From positions 1-26,747 of the IMG/VR virus record IMGVR_UViG_2778261499_000013: a DNA stretch of 26,747 nucleotides. The stretch is one strand, 5' to 3'. How positions within the stretch are numbered: position 1 is the first letter of the stretch; the number at the start of each line of letters is the position of its first letter. This document shows positions 1,237 to 14,909 of the stretch, piece by piece. The stretch comes from a virus (lineage: Duplodnaviria; Heunggongvirae; Uroviricota; Caudoviricetes). The notes under the pieces were generated by a model. It was not told the origin of the DNA. It ran no database searches and saw only the letters and a program-made list of their open reading frames with translations. A program made the translations under genes and the position numbers.

Positions 1237-3399
1237 TTATTCACATAAAGATATTGATGCCAATATAAACATTGCAAGTTCGTCATATCTTATACCATAA
1301 CTTTCACAAAAGATATCTATATTTCCAGTCATGTGTTCGCGATGCGTTTTATCGTGACACCAAAACCCATACTTACTAGGATCAAGTCCGTGCTTCCTCA
1401 TTATATTACCAACAGTTTGAGCTCCAACACCAAAATGCCACCTAGCACCATCAAATCCCTTTACCTCAACAGAATCCAGCATCTTAAACTTTTTAATATT
1501 ATCTTTTATTTCTAGTGCAGCTTTTTTTTCAGCAACATCAATGTCTGTTAGTTTTGTTTTCAACATTTCATTTGATGTATTTATCATTCCTGTAGTTGCA
1601 TATATTGTTTTATATCTCGCATCCGGCCCACCAATATCAAAAGCATTATCAATTTGTGGTGTAATTTTCCCATAATGAAAGAATAATTCATGCTCACTAT
1701 TACCTATAGCTACAGTATTCTGAGCGGCAATTACCCCACTACCGATAGCTACTGCGTTACTTCCGGTTGATTTTGTATTATCTCCGAGAAGGACGCAGTT
1801 TGTCACATCTGTAGCCTGCTCTGACACGTTACCAGAATTAGAACCTAAAAATACATTGAAAGATCCAGCCGTTACTTTAAACCCTGCATCGAATCCAATA
1901 CCAACATTATCAGATCCTGATGCAGAATATAGCGCCTCGTAACCTATAGCTGTATTATTATTACCTAACGCGTTGAAACCCGACTTAGCCCCTACCGCAA
2001 CACAATACTGGATAGACACCCCCGTAGGAAAACTGGAATTACCGCCACGTAACGCATATTCACCAAAAGCGGTGTTCTCATTACCAGCACTGTTGTGATA
2101 CAAGGCCTGCACACCTGCCGCAGTATTCCCAAATCCTGTTTTGTTATACCTGTTAGTATCATTACCAATACCAGTATTACCGTAGCCTGTTGTGTTTGCA
2201 CATAACGCAAAAACCCCAACCGCTACGTTATCAGAACCAGATACGTTAGCTCTTAGAGAATCAGCACCGTATGCACAATTGTTTTTACCAGTCTTATTGT
2301 TTTCCATAGACTGAATCCCAGACGCGGTATTTGCGTATCCTGTAGTGTTTGAGTGCAAACTCTTCCACCCATATGCGGTATTGTTAGCTCCTACGTTTCC
2401 ACCGCCTAATGAGTCTTTTCCAGCGGAAGTATTAGTATCATTGTTTCCGCTAACATTAAAAATAACGCTTCCTGATTTAACGATGCTGCCACTTCCTGTG
2501 TTTATTACTGATGGATTGGAAGGAATGAAAAATGACCATGAGTCATTTACTGTATGTCCAGTGGTTGAAGAAAAGTTTATCTTCAATCCACTTACGAAAA
2601 AATCCACCCCACCTGCAAGTATTACGATTGGTTGCTGAGATACACTGTCATCGATTGGGTTGTACACGTCTATCGTGTCACGCCATGTAACTCCATTATC
2701 TGTACTGAATTCAAGCTTATCAGGATTTGAAGCTTCTTTTATTCTTACAATTGCATTTAGATCTTGCTGTCCATTGTATATTCCTGACACGGTCATGTCG
2801 TTAACACCAGAGCCAGAATATTTAGTCTGGTAATTAATCACTACTATGCCAGGCCCCCAATATCTCTTATTTAAGTTAATATTATTTACATTATAAATAC
2901 CATCAGGAATGTATATGTCATTGAATTCTGATATCTCTGCATCGTTAAATGCCTGCGTATTGTTTGTTAATCCATCACCAATAGCACCAAAAAAAGTAAT
3001 AGGCTTCGAAACACCACCTATCAATCCTGCTCCACCAGATGATTCAAGCTCCAACCTTAATTGATCCGGCTCATACTTCAACACATTAGGAAAATAGAAC
3101 TGCTGTGCACCATATACATCATAAACAGCCATAGAATGGCCTTGCACAGTTACGAATTTGGCAATCTGTCCGTTATATACAGGGTAACCAGCGGCGTTAA
3201 TGATGATTGGTTGCGAAACAGGAACGTGAGAACCGTCTTCGTTCTCTACATAAACCTGAATCTGGTTTTCAGGATTTACCGGGTCAGTGTCAATTTTACC
3301 GATATAAATTTTTCCATTAGCTACGGCTTTAAAAGAACGAGCCATAGTGAAGAGTTGCGAAGGCATACTCACTACAACATTGGCTGTAATGTCTGTCAT
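1237..3399 (-). CDS. Tailspike/tail fiber: P22 gp9-like head-binding N-domain, Gly/Asn/Thr-rich repeat domain, C-terminal chaperone-like domain
   Basis: 720-aa ORF; N-terminus [46 protein letters not shown] closely matches my recollection of the P22 tailspike head-binding domain; central GNTxxG/NTAxG repeats; C-terminal ~100 aa ([26 protein letters not shown]...) resembles intramolecular chaperone domains of endosialidase-type fibers. Confidence 0.85.
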
Positions 3400-3499: not shown

Positions 3500-4390
3500 T
3501 CAGTAGTTATGTACTGAAGGAGGTAATTCTTTATTCTTAAGTCTCATCCATGCGGAAAGATTCGTTGGTCCGTCTGGCTCATTAATATCAACATCTCGTG
3601 TGTGGTTTATTAAAACGTCTCTCGCCATTCCGATAACATACGAGAACTCATGACCGTAGTCGTAGCATCTGCCGGAATAGTTCGATTGAATTTGTTTTAA
3701 TGCCGGATACAGTTCGCGGAATAATGCCTGTGAGCGGTTGGCATAATCCCATAACCATACAAGGCTGTTTGCTTCTTTTGCAGAAAGCTCGTTTGCTTTC
3801 TTCTCTTGTTTGCCGATTAACTCGCCTTCAAGCACTACCCTGTGGATGTACTCTACGGCCAGCGGGATTTGTTCAATTGAAAGTTCATCAATGCTGTCAA
3901 TACCAAAACGCTGATGAACCATATTGTATGCATCGTCATAGCGAAGTCCTTTCTTTCCTACCAGCATGTTTACTGCATCGCGTAGCGGTGTGCGTTCAGC
4001 TACTGAAGTTTTACCTCCAATAGCCTTCCTCTCTTGTGTGGCAGTAACCATTGCGTCATATGCACGGATAACCTTCAGCGCAAAGGCTGCGCTAATCCAC
4101 ATAGCGTAGGAGTAAACAAGCTCCTTGCACACGTAGGTTCCACCATATCGACCTTTCTTAGAAAGGACGGGATTCTTATTCTGCATATCCGCAGAATTAA
4201 AAATTTCATTAATCAATTCAATAGTTTCATTTCTACGCATGAAGAAAGCTGGCTGATGTTTTTCCTCCTTCCCAGACGCTACATGAAGGTCATTAAGCGA
4301 GTAACGCCCCTCTGAATCCATATGAATCTTGACGTCAGAAATGATGATGCTATTAGTGCAATTTACAGTTGACTTTGCTAAGCTTGACAT
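3500..4390 (-). CDS. ant: Antirepressor-like protein with KilA-N domain
   Basis: ORF with KilA-N-like N-terminal region ([36 protein letters not shown]); sits where P22 ant sits (downstream of arc, upstream of tailspike). Start uncertain: ATG at 4390 (AGGT 10 nt upstream) versus TTG at 4456 overlapping the upstream stop. Confidence 0.65.
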
Positions 4391-4452
4391 ATCAATAATA
4401 CCTCGTAAGTTTTGTTGATACCGAAGCCCTGACTGTTCCAGCAGTTGGGGCT

Positions 4453-4722
4453 TCAACGTTTTTCCACTTCATTTTGAATTTGCTTAAGTAGCATATTTGT
4501 CTCGTCAAGCCTCTTGTTAATACGGTCAAGGCTTTCTACTAAATCGTTATGTGCATGTGATACTTCGTAATTTGAGACTGATTTTTTTTCCTCTATCGTC
4601 TTTGTCAATCGTTCCCCTGATTGATACATATTGATTAACGATGTAAAAATCACGAGCAAGCAAACTACAATGATTGCGCCAGACAAAAATTGTAAAGAAC
4701 GATCAAGCAATGACACCTTCAT
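4453..4722 (-). CDS. Small membrane-anchored coiled-coil protein inserted between arc and ant
   Basis: 89-aa ORF; its ATG overlaps the arc stop (ATGA); hydrophobic segment [21 protein letters not shown] followed by a charged, heptad-like C-terminal region; no family recognised. Confidence 0.6.
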
Positions 4723-4877
4723 ACCGTAATCCCCTCTCTCTTCAGGCTGTCCATCACTCGCTTGTAAATCTCAGAGTTAACAGATCGCCCGTTCTCTTCA
4801 GCTACCTTGCGTACCAAATCCAATACTTCTTTAGGCCACCGCAAATTGAACTGCGGCATTTTGCTCATTCCTTTCAT
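4719..4877 (-). CDS. arc: Arc repressor (ribbon-helix-helix)
   Basis: Below the 60-aa ORF track cutoff; translated by hand: [52 protein letters not shown] (52 aa), near-identical to P22 Arc as I recall it; GAGG Shine-Dalgarno upstream. Confidence 0.9.
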   Translation of the reverse strand: MKGMSKMPQFNLRWPKEVLDLVRKVAEENGRSVNSEIYKRVMDSLKREGITV

Positions 4878-4891
4878 GTTCACCTCACATT

Positions 4892-4912
4892 ATAGGTCCA
4901 CCGTGGACCTAT
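4892..4912. promoter_or_regulatory. Mnt operator (perfect 21-bp palindrome)
   Basis: ATAGGTCCACCGTGGACCTAT is a perfect palindrome containing the P22 Omnt core AGGTCCACCGTGGACCT. Confidence 0.85.
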
Positions 4913-4940
4913 TGAGAATATAGTAGAGTGCTTCTATCAT
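4912..4940 (+). promoter_or_regulatory. Pmnt-like promoter
   Basis: Plus strand TTGAGA (4912-4917), 17-bp spacer, TATCAT (4935-4940); overlaps Pant divergently; GGAG Shine-Dalgarno 7 nt before the mnt ATG. Confidence 0.55.
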
Positions 4941-4945
4941 GTCAA
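4917..4945 (-). promoter_or_regulatory. Pant-like promoter driving arc-orf89-ant
   Basis: Minus strand TTGACA (4945-4940), 17-bp spacer, TATATT (4922-4917); the Arc operator fills the spacer and the Mnt operator covers the predicted start site. Confidence 0.7.
4920..4940. promoter_or_regulatory. Arc operator
   Basis: ATAGTAGAGTGCTTCTATCAT is the reverse complement of the 21-bp P22 arc operator ATGATAGAAGCACTCTACTAT as I recall it. Confidence 0.85.
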
Positions 4946-4967
4946 TACACTAACTTGGAGTGATGGC

Positions 4968-5225
4968 ATGGCTAGAGATGATCCGCACTTTAACTTCCGT
5001 ATGCCTTTGGAAGTAAGAGAAAAATTGAAATTAAGAGCCGAGGCTAACGGAAGGTCAATGAACTCTGAGTTATTACAAATCGTTCAGGATGCTCTCTCAA
5101 AGCCATCACCGATTGCAGGCTATCGCAACGAAGCTGAACGCTTGGCTGATGAACATTCGGATATCGTAAAAAATATGGTATTCGAAACTTTAAAAAAACT
5201 TTATGGAAAAGAAAAGAATGAGTAA
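4968..5225 (+). CDS. mnt: Mnt maintenance repressor (ribbon-helix-helix)
   Basis: 85-aa ORF MARDDPHFNFRMPLEVREKLKLRAEANGRSMNSELLQIVQDALSK... matches my recollection of P22 Mnt almost residue for residue. Confidence 0.92.
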   Translation: MARDDPHFNFRMPLEVREKLKLRAEANGRSMNSELLQIVQDALSKPSPIAGYRNEAERLADEHSDIVKNMVFETLKKLYGKEKNE

Positions 5226-5487
5226 TAAAGAGCTTGTTAAAAAATCAAATAACTGTGTCGATGCATATGCTGACTCATTTGGATACTCTTCGTTTGGTGA
5301 CGGTTCCCAGCGATTAGGTTCAATTTCTTTTTTTCATAATGTAACTGAATGGCCTGTTGATGAAAGCGGTGATGTTGAAAACATAAAGTACAATATTGCC
5401 ACCATTAGAATGCCTGAAGAATTGATGCTTAAATTGGCGGACTTCATTCGCGACCAACATTATAAGGCTAAAACAAACGAGTCGTAA
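5218..5487 (+). CDS. Hypothetical small protein with Arc/Mnt-like RMPEEL segment
   Basis: ORF overlapping the mnt 3' end (ATG at 5218 preferred over 5203 by purine-rich upstream context); C-terminal NIATIRMPEELMLKLADFIRDQ resembles the beta-strand and first helix of Arc/Mnt. Confidence 0.5.
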   Translation: MSNKELVKKSNNCVDAYADSFGYSSFGDGSQRLGSISFFHNVTEWPVDESGDVENIKYNIATIRMPEELMLKLADFIRDQHYKAKTNES

Positions 5488-5490
5488 TCA

Positions 5491-5940
5491 ATGATGAAAC
5501 ACGATTATTACGAAGCTCCAAATCTAACTGAAAAGCTTGAACAAGCGGAAAAATCATCATCTTTGTACACAAATCCAATTTCTCAGTCATCAGGAATGTC
5601 TGGCATGAATATGGGCATGCTACAATCAAGTGGTGGTGGAGCTGGGAGTAACAACATGCTTGAGGCTAGGGTTGCACGGTTAGAGGCAGATGTTGAAAAC
5701 ATTAAGACCAATCTATCTGAGGCAAGGTCTGACATCTCTCGTTTGCGTGATATCTCAGCTGATACATCCAGAGATGTTGCGGTGGTCCTGCAAAAAATAG
5801 TAGATGTAGACGAAAAATTATCAAAAAAACCGAGTAAGAGCGAAGTCCAGACATTGATATCTTCTGCAGTAAACAAGCAAATACTATGGACCATAGGGAC
5901 TGGATTTGCTCTTTTAGGGATAGCTAAATATATATTTTAG
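5491..5940 (+). CDS. Hypothetical tail-anchored coiled-coil membrane protein
   Basis: 149 aa; Ser/Gly/Met-rich low-complexity N-terminus, heptad-like central region (LEARVARLEADVENIKTNLSEARSDISRLRDI), single C-terminal hydrophobic helix ILWTIGTGFALLGIAKYIF; starts 3 nt after the previous stop. Confidence 0.6.
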   Translation: MMKHDYYEAPNLTEKLEQAEKSSSLYTNPISQSSGMSGMNMGMLQSSGGGAGSNNMLEARVARLEADVENIKTNLSEARSDISRLRDISADTSRDVAVVLQKIVDVDEKLSKKPSKSEVQTLISSAVNKQILWTIGTGFALLGIAKYIF

Positions 5941-6009
5941 CTCACCTCATCAGCTATCTTCTTGTTCCATTCACTCAGTGCCACTGCAAGGAAAACTAAG
6001 GAGGTTAGT

Positions 6010-6399
6010 GTGAAGCGATTTCTTGCTGGTATGTTTTTATTCATATCTTTTGGGGCTACAGCAGAATGCTGGGTTGTTGGAGATATGCGCGGAATAAGCT
6101 ATTCAGAACGAAATAATTTCCAACCGGAAGAAGATGGTTTTAGTGGAACATTTATCATTAAGACAAGCGGTGAAGATGCCAGCATCACATATTCTGGGAC
6201 GGATGCTGGCGGCATGGCTTACAAAGCATTGTCTAAAAACTCCATCATAGGAATCGGCGCGAATGGCGAAACTCAACGAGTTATCGACTCATGGGTAATA
6301 CATCCTAATGGAACAGTTTTAATGTCGAAAACCATTTCTGGTTATGGAAACATGGATTCAACCAAAGCTTTTGTTGGAAAAGTAAAAAGAAAATGTTAA
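6010..6399 (+). CDS. Hypothetical secreted (periplasmic) protein
   Basis: GTG start 5 nt after a strong Shine-Dalgarno TAAGGAGGT (5997-6005); predicted signal peptide KRFLAGMFLFISFGATA with AxA cleavage site; mature protein about 110 aa with Cys near both ends. The ORF-track ATG at 5962 lacks a Shine-Dalgarno. Confidence 0.6.
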   Translation: MKRFLAGMFLFISFGATAECWVVGDMRGISYSERNNFQPEEDGFSGTFIIKTSGEDASITYSGTDAGGMAYKALSKNSIIGIGANGETQRVIDSWVIHPNGTVLMSKTISGYGNMDSTKAFVGKVKRKC

Positions 6400-6423: not shown

Positions 6424-8265
6424 TTACTGCTGTGTTGCCTCAGTGGCAAGCAGCGGTCTGATGGCATTTGCAGCGTTACTTAATGCTCTTTCATAGGCTG
6501 GCGTTCCAGCTTTAGTGTTTGCCAGACGTAAGAGAGCATTCCTTGCTGCTTTGGACTCATACAAGCGCATCATTGCACCGAAACCAGCCTCAAGCCCCAT
6601 TGATACGCCAAGAGTCGCAGTTGCGCCAATCGTCCTTATCCTATTGGCTTGCGATTGCCCCGTCTGAGTTACTACATTTGCGGTGTCTGACCTTGCTGTT
6701 TGCTGTAGAACTTCATGAAGAGCATCAAGCTCTTTCATGTGCTTTCCAGAAAAAATAGTGTTGTAAATTTCACCGCCTGACTGAGATTTCAGCTTATTAA
6801 CTTCAGTGATGAACTTGGCTGGAGAGTCACCGGCCTTTTCCGCTATTTTGCTGACGTAAGCTGCACGCATAGCATCTTTCCCTTTATCATCCAATGCGCT
6901 CCAGATTCGTTTCACGTCAGATGGTTTTCTGCTTAATACAACGGTATTTATAAGTTCAGGACTGGCTTCACTGCTTGCCTTGTTGAGCTTGTTAGCAATG
7001 TTTTTATTAAGCACCTTATTATAAACGTTTGCATAATCGGAATTTGCTTTAAGGTATTTTGCTGCGTCTGATGCACCGAGGTTTTTTGCAACTGCGTTAC
7101 GAAGATCTTTTGACATTGCATTCTCTACCATATTGGTAGCTGCTTTTGCCTGGTTGGGGAAGACCATAGCATCTCCCTGAACATTAGATCTAAATGCTGT
7201 TCTGTGCTGACGCAAGAGATCAAACGTAACATCCAAATCAGTTGCAGGGTTTGCTAATTCTTCACGTAGGTTACGCAAGGATGTAAGCAGGCTTTGATTG
7301 GCAGACGTCCCAAGCCGTTCCTGTCTTGCGATCGCTGTATTCAGAGCATTCATGGTATTTGTGGTATCAACTGCGGCATTACCCATTTTATTGGTGACGT
7401 CATTGATAACAGCGCCAGCGGCATCCTTCCGCCCCCTTAACGTGGTGGTCAGAGATTTCACCACATCATCAGGGTTGTACTCACCAAAACGGTCAAAATA
7501 ATTGCTTACCAGCTTACTACGCGTTGCATATTGCTCCGCACGCTTTGAACCTGTCCCTAGCAAAGCCCCCTCAGCATCCTGAGTAAGGCCACGAGTGAAA
7601 GCATTTTTCGGCGTGATTACATCAGATGTCATAGGTGTCACGCCCATCGATTCTGATGTGGCAATTTTTTTCGCTACTTCTGGCGCAATATCGCCTTTTA
7701 TAGCCGTTATTCCACGACCTATTCCCTTTGCTGCTGCGGAAAGAACACCCTGAGCAGCAAGGTTAACTCCGGCATTTTTAGCTGCATTTTGTGCGAAATC
7801 GCCTTTCTGATTTGCGGCCTCTGCCAGTGATCCAATAGCCATGCTTCCTGCCGTTCCAACTCCTGGAACTAAATACCCGCCAATTGTTTCTCCAGCTTGC
7901 GCATAAGGGTCTGTTGGTCGATCTACTGGACGATAGACATCGTCCAAAACCTTGGGGCCACCAAGCCCCTGGCTGATTGCATTAATCAGACTTGCGCCAC
8001 CCTGCAATACGTCAAATGGTATGTTTACCAGACCACGACCAGCCTGCTCTGCAATTTGCCCTGCACTTTGACCACCTGTGAGCCAATCGCCAGCTTGTTG
8101 CATCAATGATGGTTCTTCACGTGCTGGTTCATTATTGGCCTGATTAACTGTTTGTTGCTGAACAGCCTGACCAGCAAAATACTCATCAATGGCGGTGCCA
8201 ATATCTTCCGTGCTCGTACCATCAGGGAAGGTAAATGTCTTACCGTTTGCAGTTACTTTCATCAT
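6424..8265 (-). CDS. Ejection/internal virion protein, P22 gp16-like
   Basis: 613-aa ORF at the position and size of P22 gene 16 (609 aa), last gene of the late operon; start overlaps the upstream stop. Confidence 0.8.
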
Positions 8266-9677
8266 TCCACCGTAAATTGAATGCCTGATTTTGAGGTATA
8301 TGATCCAACCTGATTCCGTGGTTCTCCTGAAGGTGTCGAATCTTGTGCTGGCGCTGCGTCAGTATTCATTGACATATACCGCTTAACGGCACTCCCCAAT
8401 GATTCACCTTTTTTAACATCCAACCCCAATATCTGACCGCCATTACGCGATTGTCCAGGGTTGCCATTCGCGCTCATCCACTCGGCTTTAAACTCATTAA
8501 ACTGCGCGTTTCGTCGCTCAAGGTTTGCCATAGCATCAAGCCATCTTGCGACCGTCTCAGGGTTATCCATGTCAGTTGGCGCACCCTGTCGAACGATCTC
8601 AACGTCTTTATCCGTTGCTGGGCCGGGAGGTAGGAATTTAAGAACCTGACTGTTAACAAGGGCATTTTGGCGAATGCGCAAATCACGCAATGTCGTATCG
8701 CTTCCGGTAAGTTTTGCGAACATGTTCTGTGCGTTACCGAACAAACCTGTCGTTGGTTTTTCTGCTCTGAACTGTTGAGCAAGCGCACTCATGGAATTGG
8801 CTGAGTTTGATGATGCTGTGGCATTGTTTACAGCCGTCTCGATGCCTTTTTCCATGTTTACTGACAGCTTAGGTGCTTCGCTAATCAACTGCTGAGCCTT
8901 TTCCTGCGCTTGCTGCATCTTAAACCCGAACTCTTGCTGATCCAGAGCCAAGCGTTGTGCTGCGATATTGTGCCCAGTCATTGCTGACTGATAGGAAAGG
9001 TTTTGCCCTCTCGCCTGAAGTGCTTCACCAGCCTGATTGCTGCGGATTGTCTCTGCCAGCCTGCCTCGGTCAATTTCACGACCAGCCATCTTATCCTGAA
9101 CAGCAAACGCCTTTTCTGGTCCAAGCGCACCGAGAGACATAGTAGTCAGCATGTGTGATAGCTGCTCTGGATTCTGGATACCTGTCTGAATCATCCAGTC
9201 AGCATTAGCACCAACGCGATTTAACCTGTCCTTGTTGTCAGTAATGAATTTACTGTAGGCTTCCGGTCCCTGAGAAAGAGCGACGTTAGCCCTCATGGCT
9301 AAATCGCCCATATCGTTGCGTTGCTGCTCATTAAGACCGGAAAACGCCTGTTGTGCCTGTGCAACAAACGCTGGATTTTCCTGGGCAAACTTAAATAGTC
9401 CCGATGGATCACCAGAAGCCCATGCATCAGCGTGAACCTTATTGAACGCACTAATAGCTTTCTGTTGCTGTTCCTGATTGTAAATATCAGCAACTCCAGC
9501 CAGACCACGTAACGCGGTCAGGCCAACGTTATTTGCACCTGAGCGAGCCAGTTCATTGTTTTCGCGGATCAGACCAAGCGTTGCGTTAATATCGCTTGCC
9601 TTTGGTGCATTCTCATTTTGCGTACCGATGCCTGCCAGAAAACCACCAGAATTAATACCCTGTTGCCACGTAGCCAT
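8262..9677 (-). CDS. Ejection protein, P22 gp20-like
   Basis: 471 aa, same length and order as P22 gp20. Confidence 0.8.
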
Positions 9678-13637: not shown

Positions 13638-14891
13638 TTACTGCCCGGCAATAACGATGCCCGTATATTCAGGAACCAGTACAGAGCAACCGTACAGAGT
13701 GGTGAAACGCGCAGTGGTTACGCCTTTGATGTGGTCGAAGGCGTAAGACATGATCAGCGTGGCGCCCTGCTCGGTGGTTGCCGTCATTACCTGTGGACCC
13801 TGACCAGTTGGGAACGCCAGTTTGCCGTACATCAGTTCAACAGAACCATCAGCCCAGAACAGGTTAGCCGGTGCGGCATTTTTGTTGAGAATGGTGATTG
13901 CTGCGCTACTTGCCGCATTAGCATCAACGTTTGCATATGGACGGCTGGCGACATCCGCGTTGTCAGGCGGCAGAATTTTCGGGGAGATAGTTACTGTCGT
14001 TCCGCTAACTGCCAGAACGCGGAATACCTGCGGCTGCCCGGTGGTATCTTTGGTGATCTGGTGTACGGAATTCACCCCTGCGATGGTAAACGCATCGCCA
14101 ACCTGCAAACCTTCAGCAGATACCGTAATGGTCCCCTGTCGGTTATCCACTGGCATATCGTTAGCATCTTTCGCTTCAACCTTGTGCGCAGGTGCTGCTG
14201 CCAGCGTAATGGAAGTTGCTGTACCCTTCGGAACACGACCAGAAATATCGGTCTTGTAGCTATCAAAGGAAGCAACCGGAGGGATCTGCGCTTTTTCGTA
14301 TGCTGTCAGGGTTGCGCCCTGAGCATAGGCACGGTGACCAAGCTCGCCAGCAAGGTCTTTATAGTTGAAGGGGTTCCAGAAAGAGCGGCGGTTGATACCC
14401 TGTGGTACACCAATCGCCGTCATGGTGGCATCAATACCTGCCGCACAGTTCCACAAATCACGGCCCTGTGAACCAGTGGTTGAGTCAGCCATTGTGATCA
14501 CGTTAGTAGCACGCTGCGTGACCATGGAAATCAGGTCAGAGTCAATCTGTGCAGCAAGGCGCATACCTGCGGCGCGACCAGCTTCAGTTTTATGTTCAGG
14601 GTCACGCATTTCACGCGCATCCAGAGTGTACAGAATGTTTTTCGGCTCCTTGAACACAGAAGGAACAAGGCGCTGAACCAGTGCTGTTGGCGTTTTGCTG
14701 CTGAGATCGAGGCCTTCTTCAATGTTCATGTGGTAATGCTGCGGACGATACAGAACATCACCTGCTCGCTGCATTGCAGTATCACCGGGACGGAATTTTT
14801 TAGCGTTACGGGAAACTACGCAGGCGGCCTCAAAGCCTTCAACGTAGTTTTCGAACATGATTTCAAGGTCTTTTGCTAATTGGTTAGCCAT
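13638..14891 (-). CDS. Major capsid (coat) protein, P22 gp5-like
   Basis: 417 aa; local similarity to P22 coat (NAKKFRPGDTAMQRAG versus AKKYTPPAASMQRSS; FWADGSVEL versus FWADDAIRI); position after scaffold. Confidence 0.85.
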   Translation of the reverse strand: MANQLAKDLEIMFENYVEGFEAACVVSRNAKKFRPGDTAMQRAGDVLYRPQHYHMNIEEGLDLSSKTPTALVQRLVPSVFKEPKNILYTLDAREMRDPEHKTEAGRAAGMRLAAQIDSDLISMVTQRATNVITMADSTTGSQGRDLWNCAAGIDATMTAIGVPQGINRRSFWNPFNYKDLAGELGHRAYAQGATLTAYEKAQIPPVASFDSYKTDISGRVPKGTATSITLAAAPAHKVEAKDANDMPVDNRQGTITVSAEGLQVGDAFTIAGVNSVHQITKDTTGQPQVFRVLAVSGTTVTISPKILPPDNADVASRPYANVDANAASSAAITILNKNAAPANLFWADGSVELMYGKLAFPTGQGPQVMTATTEQGATLIMSYAFDHIKGVTTARFTTLYGCSVLVPEYTGIVIAGQ

Positions 14892-14909
14892 GCTTAATGC
14901 TCCGATAGG

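What the first reader, a model, noticed from the sequence alone, without database searches (positions are those of the whole stretch)
6010..6399. Secreted small protein at the cassette end, annotated from a GTG start that an ATG-only gene call would miss
The ORF-track ATG at 5962 has no ribosome-binding site, whereas the GTG at 6010 follows TAAGGAGGT at ideal spacing and opens straight into a canonical signal peptide (KRFLAGMFLFISFGATA, cleavage before ECWVV). Mature Cys residues near both ends could form a disulfide. Periplasmic phage-encoded proteins are known to block receptor function or DNA translocation.
Basis: partly seen in the sequence, partly recalled or inferred. Interest (0 to 1): 0.45.

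Follow-up and report, generated by a model that had tools for sequence, protein, structure and literature searches.

The report
Exported Hex-like prophage protein, sieA slot
This is a real gene in a P22-like E. coli prophage for a small exported beta-barrel protein, a distant relative of phage 434 Hex, and it sits where phage P22 keeps its superinfection-exclusion gene sieA, so it most likely keeps rival phages out from the periplasm.

Summary
A perfect Shine-Dalgarno sequence, TAAGGAGGT (5997-6005), precedes GTG 6010, and the 129-aa product opens with a canonical Sec/signal-peptidase-I leader (MKRFLAGMFLFISFGATA|ECW). Position 5962 is TTG, not ATG. The first in-frame ATG is 6031, which is what RefSeq annotates (122 aa, truncated leader).

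The window is a P22-like prophage of E. coli APEC O2-211. The gene is 28% identical over its full length to phage 434 Hex / Sf6 gp38, and both match phrog_2651. The family has 209 clusters at 50% identity and no Pfam model. Nearly all members have a signal-like N-terminus and an even number of Cys. Cys+2 is present in all 50 closer and all 96 remote members aligned; the C-terminal Cys is invariant in the closer set and at least 90% in the remote one. AlphaFold gives a confident 9-strand beta-barrel with no close structural relative.

All 80 close relatives lie in the P22 sieA slot, convergent with ejection gene 16. All 80 Hex relatives overlap the cI stop codon.

The gene is independent of the two upstream genes, which accompany it in only 2 of 80 loci.

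Best reading: a prophage-expressed periplasmic exclusion factor. Export is well supported; the exclusion function is inferred. The published cytoplasmic RecA role for Hex fits poorly with an exported protein.

The parts
5997..6005 (+). Shine-Dalgarno sequence TAAGGAGGT, 5 nt between GGAGG and the start codon
   Evidence: Only perfect copy in the window (0.14 expected). Conserved upstream of the start in 70 of 87 related loci.
6010..6399 (+). Coding sequence of the 129-aa Hex-family precursor (GTG start, TAA stop 6397-6399)
   Evidence: Homologues. phrog_2651 E 7.7e-61. pN/pS 0.145 in the mature part.
6010..6063 (+). Signal peptide, codons 1-18 (MKRFLAGMFLFISFGATA), predicted signal-peptidase-I cut after Ala18
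   Evidence: The charged, hydrophobic and cleavage-site features, with small residues at -3 and -1, occur in 50 of 50 family members, while the leader sequence itself is not conserved. An alternative leader allele is seen. No lipobox.
6064..6396 (+). Mature 111-aa protein (ECWVV...KRKC), predicted 9-strand up-and-down beta-barrel. Cys20 is encoded at 6067-6069 and Cys129 at 6394-6396.
5992..6015 (+). Left mosaic joint. Similarity to UPF_BP1 (mnt-orf94-orf149 module) ends at 6015, and similarity to Emek/ST-35 (this gene plus the end of gene 16) begins at 5992.
   Evidence: The alignment shows that UPF_BP1 uses the same Shine-Dalgarno sequence and GTGAAG to start a different 62-aa membrane ORF.
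4912..4940 (+). Pmnt-like sigma-70 promoter (TTGAGA-17-TATCAT), the only plus-strand promoter match upstream. It is the likely source of a mnt-orf94-orf149-target transcript.
   Evidence: No plus-strand terminator-like site between 4968 and 6399. That the transcript reads through is inferred.
4968..5225 (+). mnt (Arc/Mnt-family repressor), first gene of the plus-strand unit
   Evidence: Pfam Arc 1.4e-27 and Repressor_Mnt 3e-16.
5203..5940 (+). orf94 (5203-5487) and orf149 (5491-5940; coiled coil with a C-terminal hydrophobic segment). This is a separate two-gene module, not functionally tied to the target.
   Evidence: phrog_4231 and phrog_3556, both of unknown function. Present with the target in only 2 of 80 loci. 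Present without it in UPF_BP1.
6424..8265 (-). Gene 16 (DNA ejection protein), convergent, 24 nt beyond the target's stop. This is the right border of the slot.
   Evidence: Same geometry as sieA and gene 16 in P22, where the gap is 22 nt. In 72 of 80 loci the gene 16 match starts at the same 30-nt distance from the end of the target match.

Best explanation
The ORF at 6010-6399 is a real gene of a P22-like prophage of E. coli APEC O2-211.

It is translated from GTG 6010 into a 129-aa precursor. The Sec pathway exports the precursor and signal peptidase I cuts it after Ala18. The 111-aa mature protein folds in the periplasm into a small soluble beta-barrel closed by a Cys20-Cys129 disulfide.

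It is a divergent member of the phage 434 Hex / Sf6 gp38 family (phrog_2651). It is made in the lysogen, here most likely by read-through from Pmnt.

It acts from the periplasm to exclude superinfecting phages. The most probable targets are P22-like phages, and the most probable mechanism is interference with the envelope-crossing DNA-delivery step (the ejection-protein conduit of gp7, gp20 and gp16, or the associated cell-wall breaching). In this reading it is a soluble counterpart of the inner-membrane protein SieA, whose slot it occupies.

Shown in silico: the gene, the start codon, the signal-peptide features, the conserved Cys pair, the barrel fold, family membership and the fixed genomic slot. 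Inferred: export itself, expression in the lysogen, the exclusion function and its target.
For: Start and export. A perfect Shine-Dalgarno sequence precedes the start. Signal-peptide features occur in 50 of 50 members, and a signal-like N-terminus occurs in about 94 of 96 remote members (76 pass a strict fixed-site test and 18 more read as signal-like on inspection). The leader sequences themselves are unrelated. Mature proteins have 2 or 4 Cys in 91 of 94 remote members. None of the 94 remote members scored ends in Phe or Trp (2 end in Tyr), and only one has a lipobox-like motif.

Fold. AlphaFold2 pLDDT is 90.5.

Family. BLASTP to 434 Hex gives 28% identity over the full length, E 3e-13, and tblastn gives E 1e-6. 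The target and Hex both hit phrog_2651 end to end, at 7.7e-61 and 1.4e-58.

Genetic precedent. A lambda-imm434 lysogen of Salmonella excludes P22 and the hex- derivative does not (PMC3564112 citing Susskind and Botstein).

Independent hint of processing. The stable Hex fragment in that paper starts at Glu43 of the 158-aa ORF. That residue is exactly the predicted signal-peptidase site ANS|ECW. Full-length Hex was toxic when over-expressed.

Slot. All 80 close relatives lie between the immI region and gene 16 in P22-like (pro)phages, in the orientation and spacing of sieA. None of these loci also has a P22-type (type A) SieA; the divergent types B and C (~25% identical) were not queried. Only 22 of 66 P22-like phages carry sieA at all (PMC10883804).

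Wiring to lysogenic repressors. All 80 Hex loci overlap the cI stop codon (ATGA). The 53%-identical relative P0036 overlaps the mnt stop codon (ATGA). In the window there is no terminator-like site between Pmnt and the gene.
Against: There is no experimental localisation or phage-challenge data for this protein.

The only biochemical paper on the family assigns Hex a cytoplasmic role, inhibition of RecA-stimulated cleavage of the 434 and P22 repressors, with partial complementation in vivo.

Whether Hex excludes P22 at DNA entry or later is not stated in what I could read.

The fold is a generic small barrel with no informative structural relative. There is no hit in PADLOC, Pfam, NCBIfam or PDB sequences.

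No consensus promoter was found immediately upstream in Emek, where the neighbouring genes are on the other strand.

Two phage contigs carry both Hex and this paralogue, so the two are not simply interchangeable.

The same slot also carries cargo unrelated to phage entry, such as Rap1a immunity and a Panacea-domain gene pair.
Confidence: 0.5

Rival explanations
1. The protein is a periplasmic protective or fitness factor unrelated to phage entry. It could inhibit a peptidoglycan hydrolase or lysozyme, act as an orphan immunity protein against a type VI secretion effector or a bacteriocin, or bind a ligand. In this reading it is ordinary lysogenic-conversion cargo of a hot spot.
Against: No sequence match to MliC/PliC, Ivy, Rap1a or any Pfam family. 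The structural similarity is no better than to any 8-stranded barrel. The only genetics on the family is phage exclusion. The family sits in two classic exclusion slots, the rex/hex slot and the sieA slot.
Confidence: 0.25
2. The protein works as published for 434 Hex. It stays in the cytoplasm, binds the prophage repressor and damps RecA-stimulated autocleavage, which stabilises lysogeny.
For: PMC3564112 reports 30-fold more spontaneous induction in hex-, no difference in a recA- host, 7-fold complementation by sHex, and inhibition of 434 and P22 repressor cleavage in vitro. The resident prophage here has a LexA-family repressor just outside the window.
Against: A cleavable signal peptide and paired Cys are conserved across the whole family. 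sHex (Glu43-Asn103) corresponds to strands 1-5 of a 9-strand barrel and lacks the C-terminal Cys. It was insoluble and was refolded from guanidine. The hex- allele is a cat cassette with its own promoter and terminator placed directly after cI, so effects in cis on cI expression were not excluded (my inference). The target is not linked to cI but to mnt and gene 16.
Confidence: 0.07
3. The protein is the third component of a three-gene cassette (orf94, orf149 and this gene) that only works as a unit.
For: The three genes are adjacent, on the same strand and tightly spaced in the window. The same arrangement occurs in 2 IMG/VR contigs.
Against: 78 of 80 loci lack orf94 and orf149. UPF_BP1 has them without this gene. 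Only 1 of 5426 complete E. coli genomes has the full arrangement, while 147 have the gene.
Confidence: 0.05
4. The protein is an outer-membrane 8-stranded barrel of the Lom/Ail/OmpX/NspA type, inserted by the BAM complex.
Against: The mature protein is only 111 aa, and six of its nine strands are 5-9 residues long. None of the 94 remote members scored ends in Phe or Trp (2 end in Tyr), and the closer set ends at or a few residues after the C-terminal Cys, so the usual C-terminal aromatic signal is absent. There is a conserved disulfide. Soluble barrels score equally well (NHBA 8.9, Cap15 8.8).
Confidence: 0.03

Closest known systems
Phage 434 Hex (heterologous exclusion; identical or nearly so in Sf6 gp38, HK446 gp39 and HK633; annotated 'repressor protection protein' in OL657227)
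   Same: Homologous over the full length (28% identity, E 3e-13) and in the same PHROG (2651). Both have an 18-aa signal peptide ending A/S-x-A/S followed by ECW. The same invariant Cys pair, Trp21, Asp42, Trp95 and Gly123 are shared. Both are about 130 aa, prophage-borne, and placed for expression in the lysogen.
   Different: Hex follows cI with an ATGA overlap on the PRM transcript in 80 of 80 loci. This gene lies next to gene 16, downstream of mnt, in 80 of 80 loci. The sequences have diverged to 28% identity, and two phage contigs carry both. Hex has a published cytoplasmic mechanism that an exported protein cannot easily perform.
Phage P22 SieA (superinfection exclusion A)
   Same: Identical genomic slot, orientation and spacing: downstream of mnt and convergent with gene 16, with 22 nt versus 24 nt to the gene 16 stop. 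Both are prophage-expressed and both are expected to act in the cell envelope. SieA blocks DNA delivery by P22-like phages, and escape mutations map to the C-termini of gp16 and gp20 (PMC10883804).
   Different: No sequence similarity. SieA is a 162-164-aa inner-membrane protein with three transmembrane helices and no signal sequence. This protein is a soluble barrel with a cleavable leader.
Other small envelope-located exclusion proteins (T4 Sp and Imm, T5 Llp, phi80/N15 Cor); this comparison rests on my own knowledge
   Same: Small phage-encoded proteins exported to the envelope that stop a later phage at the receptor, cell-wall or DNA-entry step.
   Different: Llp and Cor are lipoproteins, whereas no lipobox is present here. 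There is no sequence relationship, and I found no matches to them in the PDB or viral structure searches.
PliC/MliC periplasmic lysozyme inhibitors
   Different: No Pfam MliC hit. The structural score is lower than for many unrelated barrels. No evidence of the family's motifs.

Membership tests
434 Hex / Sf6 gp38 family (phrog_2651) | Significant full-length sequence similarity to Hex | tested here: met
   BLASTP 28% identity over 129 of 134 aa, E 3e-13. tblastn against all phage records, E 1e-6 to 9e-6 at 100% coverage. The target and Hex both match phrog_2651 end to end, at 7.7e-61 and 1.4e-58.
434 Hex / Sf6 gp38 family (phrog_2651) | Shared architecture: N-terminal signal peptide, Cys at mature position +2 followed by Trp, and Cys at or near the C-terminus | tested here: met
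   Cys20, Trp21 and Cys129 are invariant in 50 sequences. Signal features occur in 50 of 50.
434 Hex / Sf6 gp38 family (phrog_2651) | Location directly downstream of cI on the PRM transcript | tested here: not met
   The target lies next to gene 16 in 80 of 80 loci. Hex follows cI in 80 of 80 loci. This is a feature of the Hex subgroup, not of homology.
434 Hex / Sf6 gp38 family (phrog_2651) | Excludes phage P22 when expressed from a prophage | not testable with these tools
   Known only for Hex, through PMC3564112 citing Susskind and Botstein 1980.
434 Hex / Sf6 gp38 family (phrog_2651) | Inhibits RecA-stimulated repressor autocleavage | not testable with these tools
   Reported for a refolded 61-residue fragment. 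Hard to reconcile with the conserved export signal.
Sec-exported, signal-peptidase-I-processed protein | Positively charged start, hydrophobic core, small residues at -3 and -1, and no lipobox | tested here: met
   Heuristic scoring: charge +2, Kyte-Doolittle maximum 2.64, A-T-A|E. SignalP was not available. Actual export is not testable here.
P22 SieA | Homology to SieA, multi-pass inner-membrane topology, and the FxRYPxEAxxFNK motif | tested here: not met
   tblastn with P22 SieA (type A) finds only P22 itself among all the loci and the window; SieA types B and C, only ~25% identical to P22 SieA, were not used as queries and would probably escape this search. The model is an all-beta barrel. 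Topology and motif are as described in PMC10883804.
P22 SieA | Genomic slot between mnt and gene 16, convergent with gene 16 | tested here: met
Outer-membrane 8-stranded barrels (OmpX/Ail/Lom/NspA) | At least about 150 aa mature length, membrane-spanning strands, and a C-terminal aromatic signal for the BAM complex | tested here: not met
   The mature protein is 111 aa with mostly 5-9-residue strands. No Phe or Trp and only 2 Tyr at the C-terminus among the 94 remote members scored.
Exclusion lipoproteins (Cor, Llp type) | Lipobox [LVI][ASTVI][GAS]C | tested here: not met
   The residue before Cys is E, D, N, Q, S, A, G or K in the 50 closer members. Only 1 of 96 remote members has a lipobox-like motif.
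MliC/PliC lysozyme inhibitors | Match to Pfam MliC and specific structural similarity | tested here: not met

The most novel reading that the evidence does not exclude
The whole Hex family (209 clusters at 50% identity, in Enterobacterales and Aeromonas prophages and mobile elements) may be an unrecognised class of soluble periplasmic superinfection-exclusion proteins. In this reading they bind a component of the P22-type DNA-delivery apparatus as it crosses the periplasm. The family was recruited independently to the two classic exclusion slots, after cI and after mnt/before gene 16. The published cytoplasmic RecA-antagonist role of Hex would then be an artefact of working with a mis-started ORF and a half-barrel fragment.
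Probability: 0.3. Interest if true: 0.7.

Novelty: new member of a known kind. Interest (0 to 1): 0.45.

Why it matters
Two thirds of sequenced P22-like phages lack sieA (PMC10883804), and what fills that slot has not been described. This gene fills it in 147 of 5426 complete E. coli genomes and in Salmonella phages such as Emek.

Linking it to Hex gives a testable function to a family that databases label 'hypothetical'. Databases also often truncate it: the 122-, 104- and 103-aa forms lose part or all of the leader.

The link also gives a simple explanation for the puzzling observations in the only Hex paper. The lethality of full-length Hex and the fragment starting at Glu43 both follow if the protein carries a signal peptide. 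That in turn questions the RecA mechanism proposed there.

If a soluble periplasmic protein can block the gp7/gp20/gp16 conduit, it would be a convenient probe for how short-tailed phages build their channel across the envelope.

Tried and rejected
Sequence and structure libraries gave nothing.
- Pfam, NCBIfam, PADLOC and PDB sequence searches returned no hits for the protein or for 96 remote relatives.
- Foldseek against PDB and against BFVD found nothing below E 1e-3.
- The afdb50 library was not available.

Some locus searches failed.
- A genome-contig scan with Hex confirmed nothing.

Promoter scans were not informative. No sigma-70 consensus was found upstream of the gene in Emek or between mnt and the gene in the window, so the gene's own promoter, if any, is unresolved.

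Literature searches found little. Searches for Hex with periplasm or signal peptide, 'repressor protection protein', 'heteroimmune exclusion', and P22-like with signal peptide returned only the 2013 Hex paper. The SieA paper and a 2024 exclusion review do not mention this gene or Hex.

Readings I rejected: the TTG 5962 start (no Shine-Dalgarno sequence, outside the conserved block), a lipoprotein, an outer-membrane barrel, and a three-gene cassette.

Full report
**Where the window comes from.** The window is 100% identical to E. coli APEC O2-211 (NZ_CP006834.2). It covers a P22-like prophage integrated beside tRNA-Arg and intS.

The gene order around the finding is:
- tailspike, 1237-3399, minus strand
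- ant, 3500-4456, minus strand
- an 89-aa ORF
- arc, 4719-4883, minus strand
- mnt, 4968-5225, plus strand
- orf94, 5203-5487, plus strand
- orf149, 5491-5940, plus strand
- the target, 6010-6399, plus strand
- ejection genes 16 (6424-8265) and 20 (8262-9677), minus strand

In phage P22 the order is mnt, ORF59a, sieA, then convergent gene 16, with 22 nt between the sieA and gene 16 stop codons. Here the gap is 24 nt. The target therefore sits exactly where P22 has sieA.

**Checking the observation.** TAAGGAGGT lies at 5997-6005 and is the only perfect copy in the window (0.14 expected by chance). GTG 6010 follows five bases after GGAGG.

The product begins MKRFLAGMFLFISFGATA|ECWVV. It has a positively charged start, a hydrophobic core and Ala at -3 and -1.

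The '5962 ATG' is in fact TTG. It has no Shine-Dalgarno sequence and lies outside the sequence block shared with other phages.

The first in-frame ATG is 6031. RefSeq's PGAP pipeline annotates that start in this genome (122 aa) and an even later Met in strain SJC33 (104 aa). Phage Emek's annotators chose the 129-aa start. Both the 122- and 129-aa forms are common in databases, on 205 and 204 contigs, and all are labelled 'hypothetical'.

**Comparative support for the start and the leader.**
- Across 87 loci, 70 use GTG behind the same Shine-Dalgarno sequence.
- The other 17 use ATG. Fourteen of these are close relatives with a different 18-aa leader (MKLIIAMAF.FSFSVSA) that rejoins the common sequence at AECWVV; three are the phage 434, Sf6 and HK446 Hex loci.
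- In an alignment of 50 family members every protein has a 17-27-aa leader. Position -3 is A, S, V, G or T and position -1 is A or S.
- Each mature protein has exactly two Cys, one at +2 and one within 0-9 residues of the C-terminus.
- The residue before the first Cys is E, D, N, Q, S, A, G or K, which is not a lipobox.
- Among 39 unique close alleles plus the window's, pN/pS is 0.145 for the mature part and 0.54 for the leader. This is the expected pattern for a real exported protein.

**What the protein is.** Pfam, NCBIfam, PADLOC and PDB sequence searches find nothing. The protein matches phrog_2651, a family of unknown function, at E 7.7e-61.

A tblastn search of phage records finds close copies in Salmonella phages Emek and ST-35. 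It also finds full-length 28%-identical matches just downstream of the repressor gene in phages 434, lambda-imm434, Sf6 (gp38), HK446 and HK633. That gene is 434 hex, annotated 'repressor protection protein' in OL657227. Pairwise BLASTP gives E 3e-13, and Hex matches the same PHROG at 1.4e-58.

Hex begins MIRIAALLSILLTTSANS|ECWIV and ends ..GTCNQ. It has the same leader, Cys-Trp and C-terminal Cys architecture.

An exhaustive profile search finds 209 clusters at 50% identity. Nearly all are stand-alone proteins of 120-140 aa.
- 76 of 96 remote members pass a strict test that assumes a fixed cleavage position. Another 18 read as signal-like on inspection, with the cleavage site shifted by a few residues. 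Two are truncated at the N-terminus.
- 91 of the 94 scored have 2 or 4 Cys.
- None of the 94 ends in Phe or Trp (2 end in Tyr), which outer-membrane barrels normally do.
- None has a Pfam domain.

**Structure.** AlphaFold2 on the 50-sequence alignment gives a mean pLDDT of 90.5. The 10-residue block means of the mature part are mostly 94-98, with one block at 82. The model has nine strands.

The first strand (18-32) and the last (117-128) are long, matching, terminal strands. Cys20 and Cys129 could therefore be in register; this is inferred, because I had no coordinates.

Foldseek against PDB and BFVD finds nothing significant. The fold therefore says 'soluble barrel' and little more.

**Genomic logic.** All 80 close relatives in IMG/VR lie in the same slot of P22-like (pro)phages, immediately before and convergent with gene 16. 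In 72 of them the gene 16 match begins at the same 30-nt distance from the end of the target match.

The upstream neighbour varies:
- mnt or arc genes
- a divergent P63C-domain gene
- a SocA/Panacea-domain gene pair
- a Rap1a-domain immunity gene 18 nt upstream (13 loci)
- orf94+orf149 (2 loci)

The gene is a separate mosaic module. UPF_BP1 matches window 4900-6015 but then uses the same Shine-Dalgarno sequence and GTGAAG for a different 62-aa membrane ORF. Emek and ST-35 match from 5992 onward.

None of the loci also has a P22-type (type A) SieA; the divergent SieA types B and C, about 25% identical to P22 SieA, were not used as queries.

A 53%-identical relative (P0036) overlaps the mnt stop codon (ATGA) in another P22-like phage. 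All 80 Hex loci overlap the stop codon of a 434-type cI in the same way. A 51%-identical relative sits convergent with cI in an Enterobacter lambdoid prophage.

The family has therefore been wired repeatedly to repressor genes that are expressed in the lysogen. In the window the only upstream plus-strand promoter match is Pmnt (4912-4940), and no terminator-like site intervenes.

**What is known about Hex, and how it fits.** PMC3564112 states that a lambda-imm434 lysogen of Salmonella excludes P22 and that the hex- derivative does not; hence the name 'heterologous exclusion'.

The paper then argues for a second, cytoplasmic role:
- hex- lysogens induce 30-fold more often.
- The difference disappears in a recA- host.
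- A fragment called sHex inhibits RecA-stimulated cleavage of the 434 and P22 repressors in vitro.

The authors worked from a 158-aa ORF that starts inside cI. I translated that ORF. Their sHex N-terminus, Glu43, is exactly the residue after the predicted signal-peptidase site ANS|E. They also report the following:
- Full-length Hex killed cells on over-expression.
- The fragment's ends were not Factor Xa sites.
- sHex was insoluble and was refolded from guanidine.
- The hex- allele is a cat cassette with its own promoter and terminator placed next to cI.

By alignment, sHex covers strands 1-5 of the nine-strand barrel and lacks the C-terminal Cys.

My reading is an inference, not a demonstration. 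A signal peptide explains the toxicity and the Glu43 end, and the cytoplasmic mechanism needs re-testing. No paper in the held library mentions export of Hex.

**Most likely mechanism.** The protein is exported and made in the lysogen. It belongs to a family with a genetic record of excluding P22. It occupies the slot of SieA, which blocks DNA delivery by P22-like phages, with escape mutations in the C-termini of gp16 and gp20 (PMC10883804).

I therefore favour a periplasmic block of DNA delivery by superinfecting P22-like phages. My confidence is about 0.5 for the function and about 0.9 for export.

The main rival (0.25) is a periplasmic protective role unrelated to phage entry. It is suggested by the Rap1a neighbour and by the PliC-like size and fold. 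The published cytoplasmic role (0.07), a three-gene cassette (0.05) and an outer-membrane barrel (0.03) are each contradicted by tests made here.

**Novelty.** The gene is a new, divergent member of a named but poorly understood family, in a new genomic position. The by-product may be of more interest: the family, including Hex itself, carries a conserved export signal that database start-codon choices have largely hidden. For example, a 103-aa Hex form lacking the leader is recorded on 759 contigs.

Noticed in passing
L001 (Salmonella phage UPF_BP1) 4111-4299, aligned to window 6010 onward: An unannotated 62-aa ORF with two hydrophobic segments (VKKKFLNVAKCAIFIFFMTFYGFSAGEG...VVIIVWVELK...) starts at the very same Shine-Dalgarno sequence and GTGAAG as the target. 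The ribosome-binding site and start codon act as a recombination joint where different exported or membrane cargo is swapped.
   Followed up: partly
L007 (E. coli SJC33) 2817-3152; L076 and 12 other IMG/VR loci: A Rap1a-domain protein (Pfam PF18602, E 9.7e-15; a family of type VI secretion amidase immunity proteins) lies between mnt and the ATG-leader allele of the target, 18 nt upstream. That places two apparently periplasmic proteins in one mnt operon of a P22-like prophage.
   Followed up: partly
L074/L149 (IMGVR_UViG_648276644_000012) and L021/L182 (IMGVR_UViG_3300045988_105086): Two phage contigs carry both paralogues: Hex after cI and the target next to gene 16. The two are therefore not simply redundant.
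   Followed up: no
Hex cluster P0024; L004 2501-2905: The commonest database form of Hex is 103 aa (one such sequence is on 759 contigs). It starts at an internal Met and lacks the signal peptide and the first Cys. The published study used a 158-aa ORF starting inside cI. The 134-aa form overlapping the cI stop codon (ATGA) is the one supported by family comparison.
   Followed up: yes
L002 (phage Emek) 2277-3150: In Emek the slot also holds an opposite-strand pair: ORF149, with a SocA/Panacea antitoxin domain (Pfam 8.1e-25), and the overlapping ORF161. This looks like a toxin-antitoxin or defence module.
   Followed up: no
L099/L100/L101, gene at 4719-7229 in L099: In the phage carrying relative P0036, the gene 16 ejection protein is 836 aa and carries an SLT lytic-transglycosylase domain in addition to the gp16 domain. 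A further 76-105-aa ORF lies between the target homologue and gene 16.
   Followed up: no
window 5203-5940: orf94 and orf149 form their own module. orf149 has a Gly/Ser/Met-rich stretch, a coiled coil and a C-terminal hydrophobic segment (phrog_3556, with weak matches to XhlA-like 'hemolysin' phrog_937). The module is 99.6% identical in UPF_BP1, and part of it (orf94 plus the start of orf149) is about 84% identical in many E. coli genomes, largely from human and bovine sources.
   Followed up: partly
window 13638-14892: RefSeq marks the P22-type major capsid gene as a frameshifted pseudogene, yet an intact 417-aa ORF spans 13638-14891. The prophage may or may not be defective.
   Followed up: partly
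window 4453-4722 (minus strand): An 89-aa ORF with an N-terminal hydrophobic segment and a coiled-coil tail is inserted between arc and ant, where P22 has nothing. Emek has a different 73-aa ORF at the same place.
   Followed up: no
Alignment A3 (96 remote family members): About half of the remote relatives have four Cys. The extra pair lies in the middle of the barrel and is absent from both the Hex subgroup and the target subgroup.
   Followed up: no
L093-L095 (Aeromonas): A 141-aa family member (P0096) lies at the edge of integrative elements, next to an integrase, resolvase or transposase, rather than in a recognisable lambdoid prophage. The family is therefore not confined to P22-like or lambda-like phages.
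   Followed up: no
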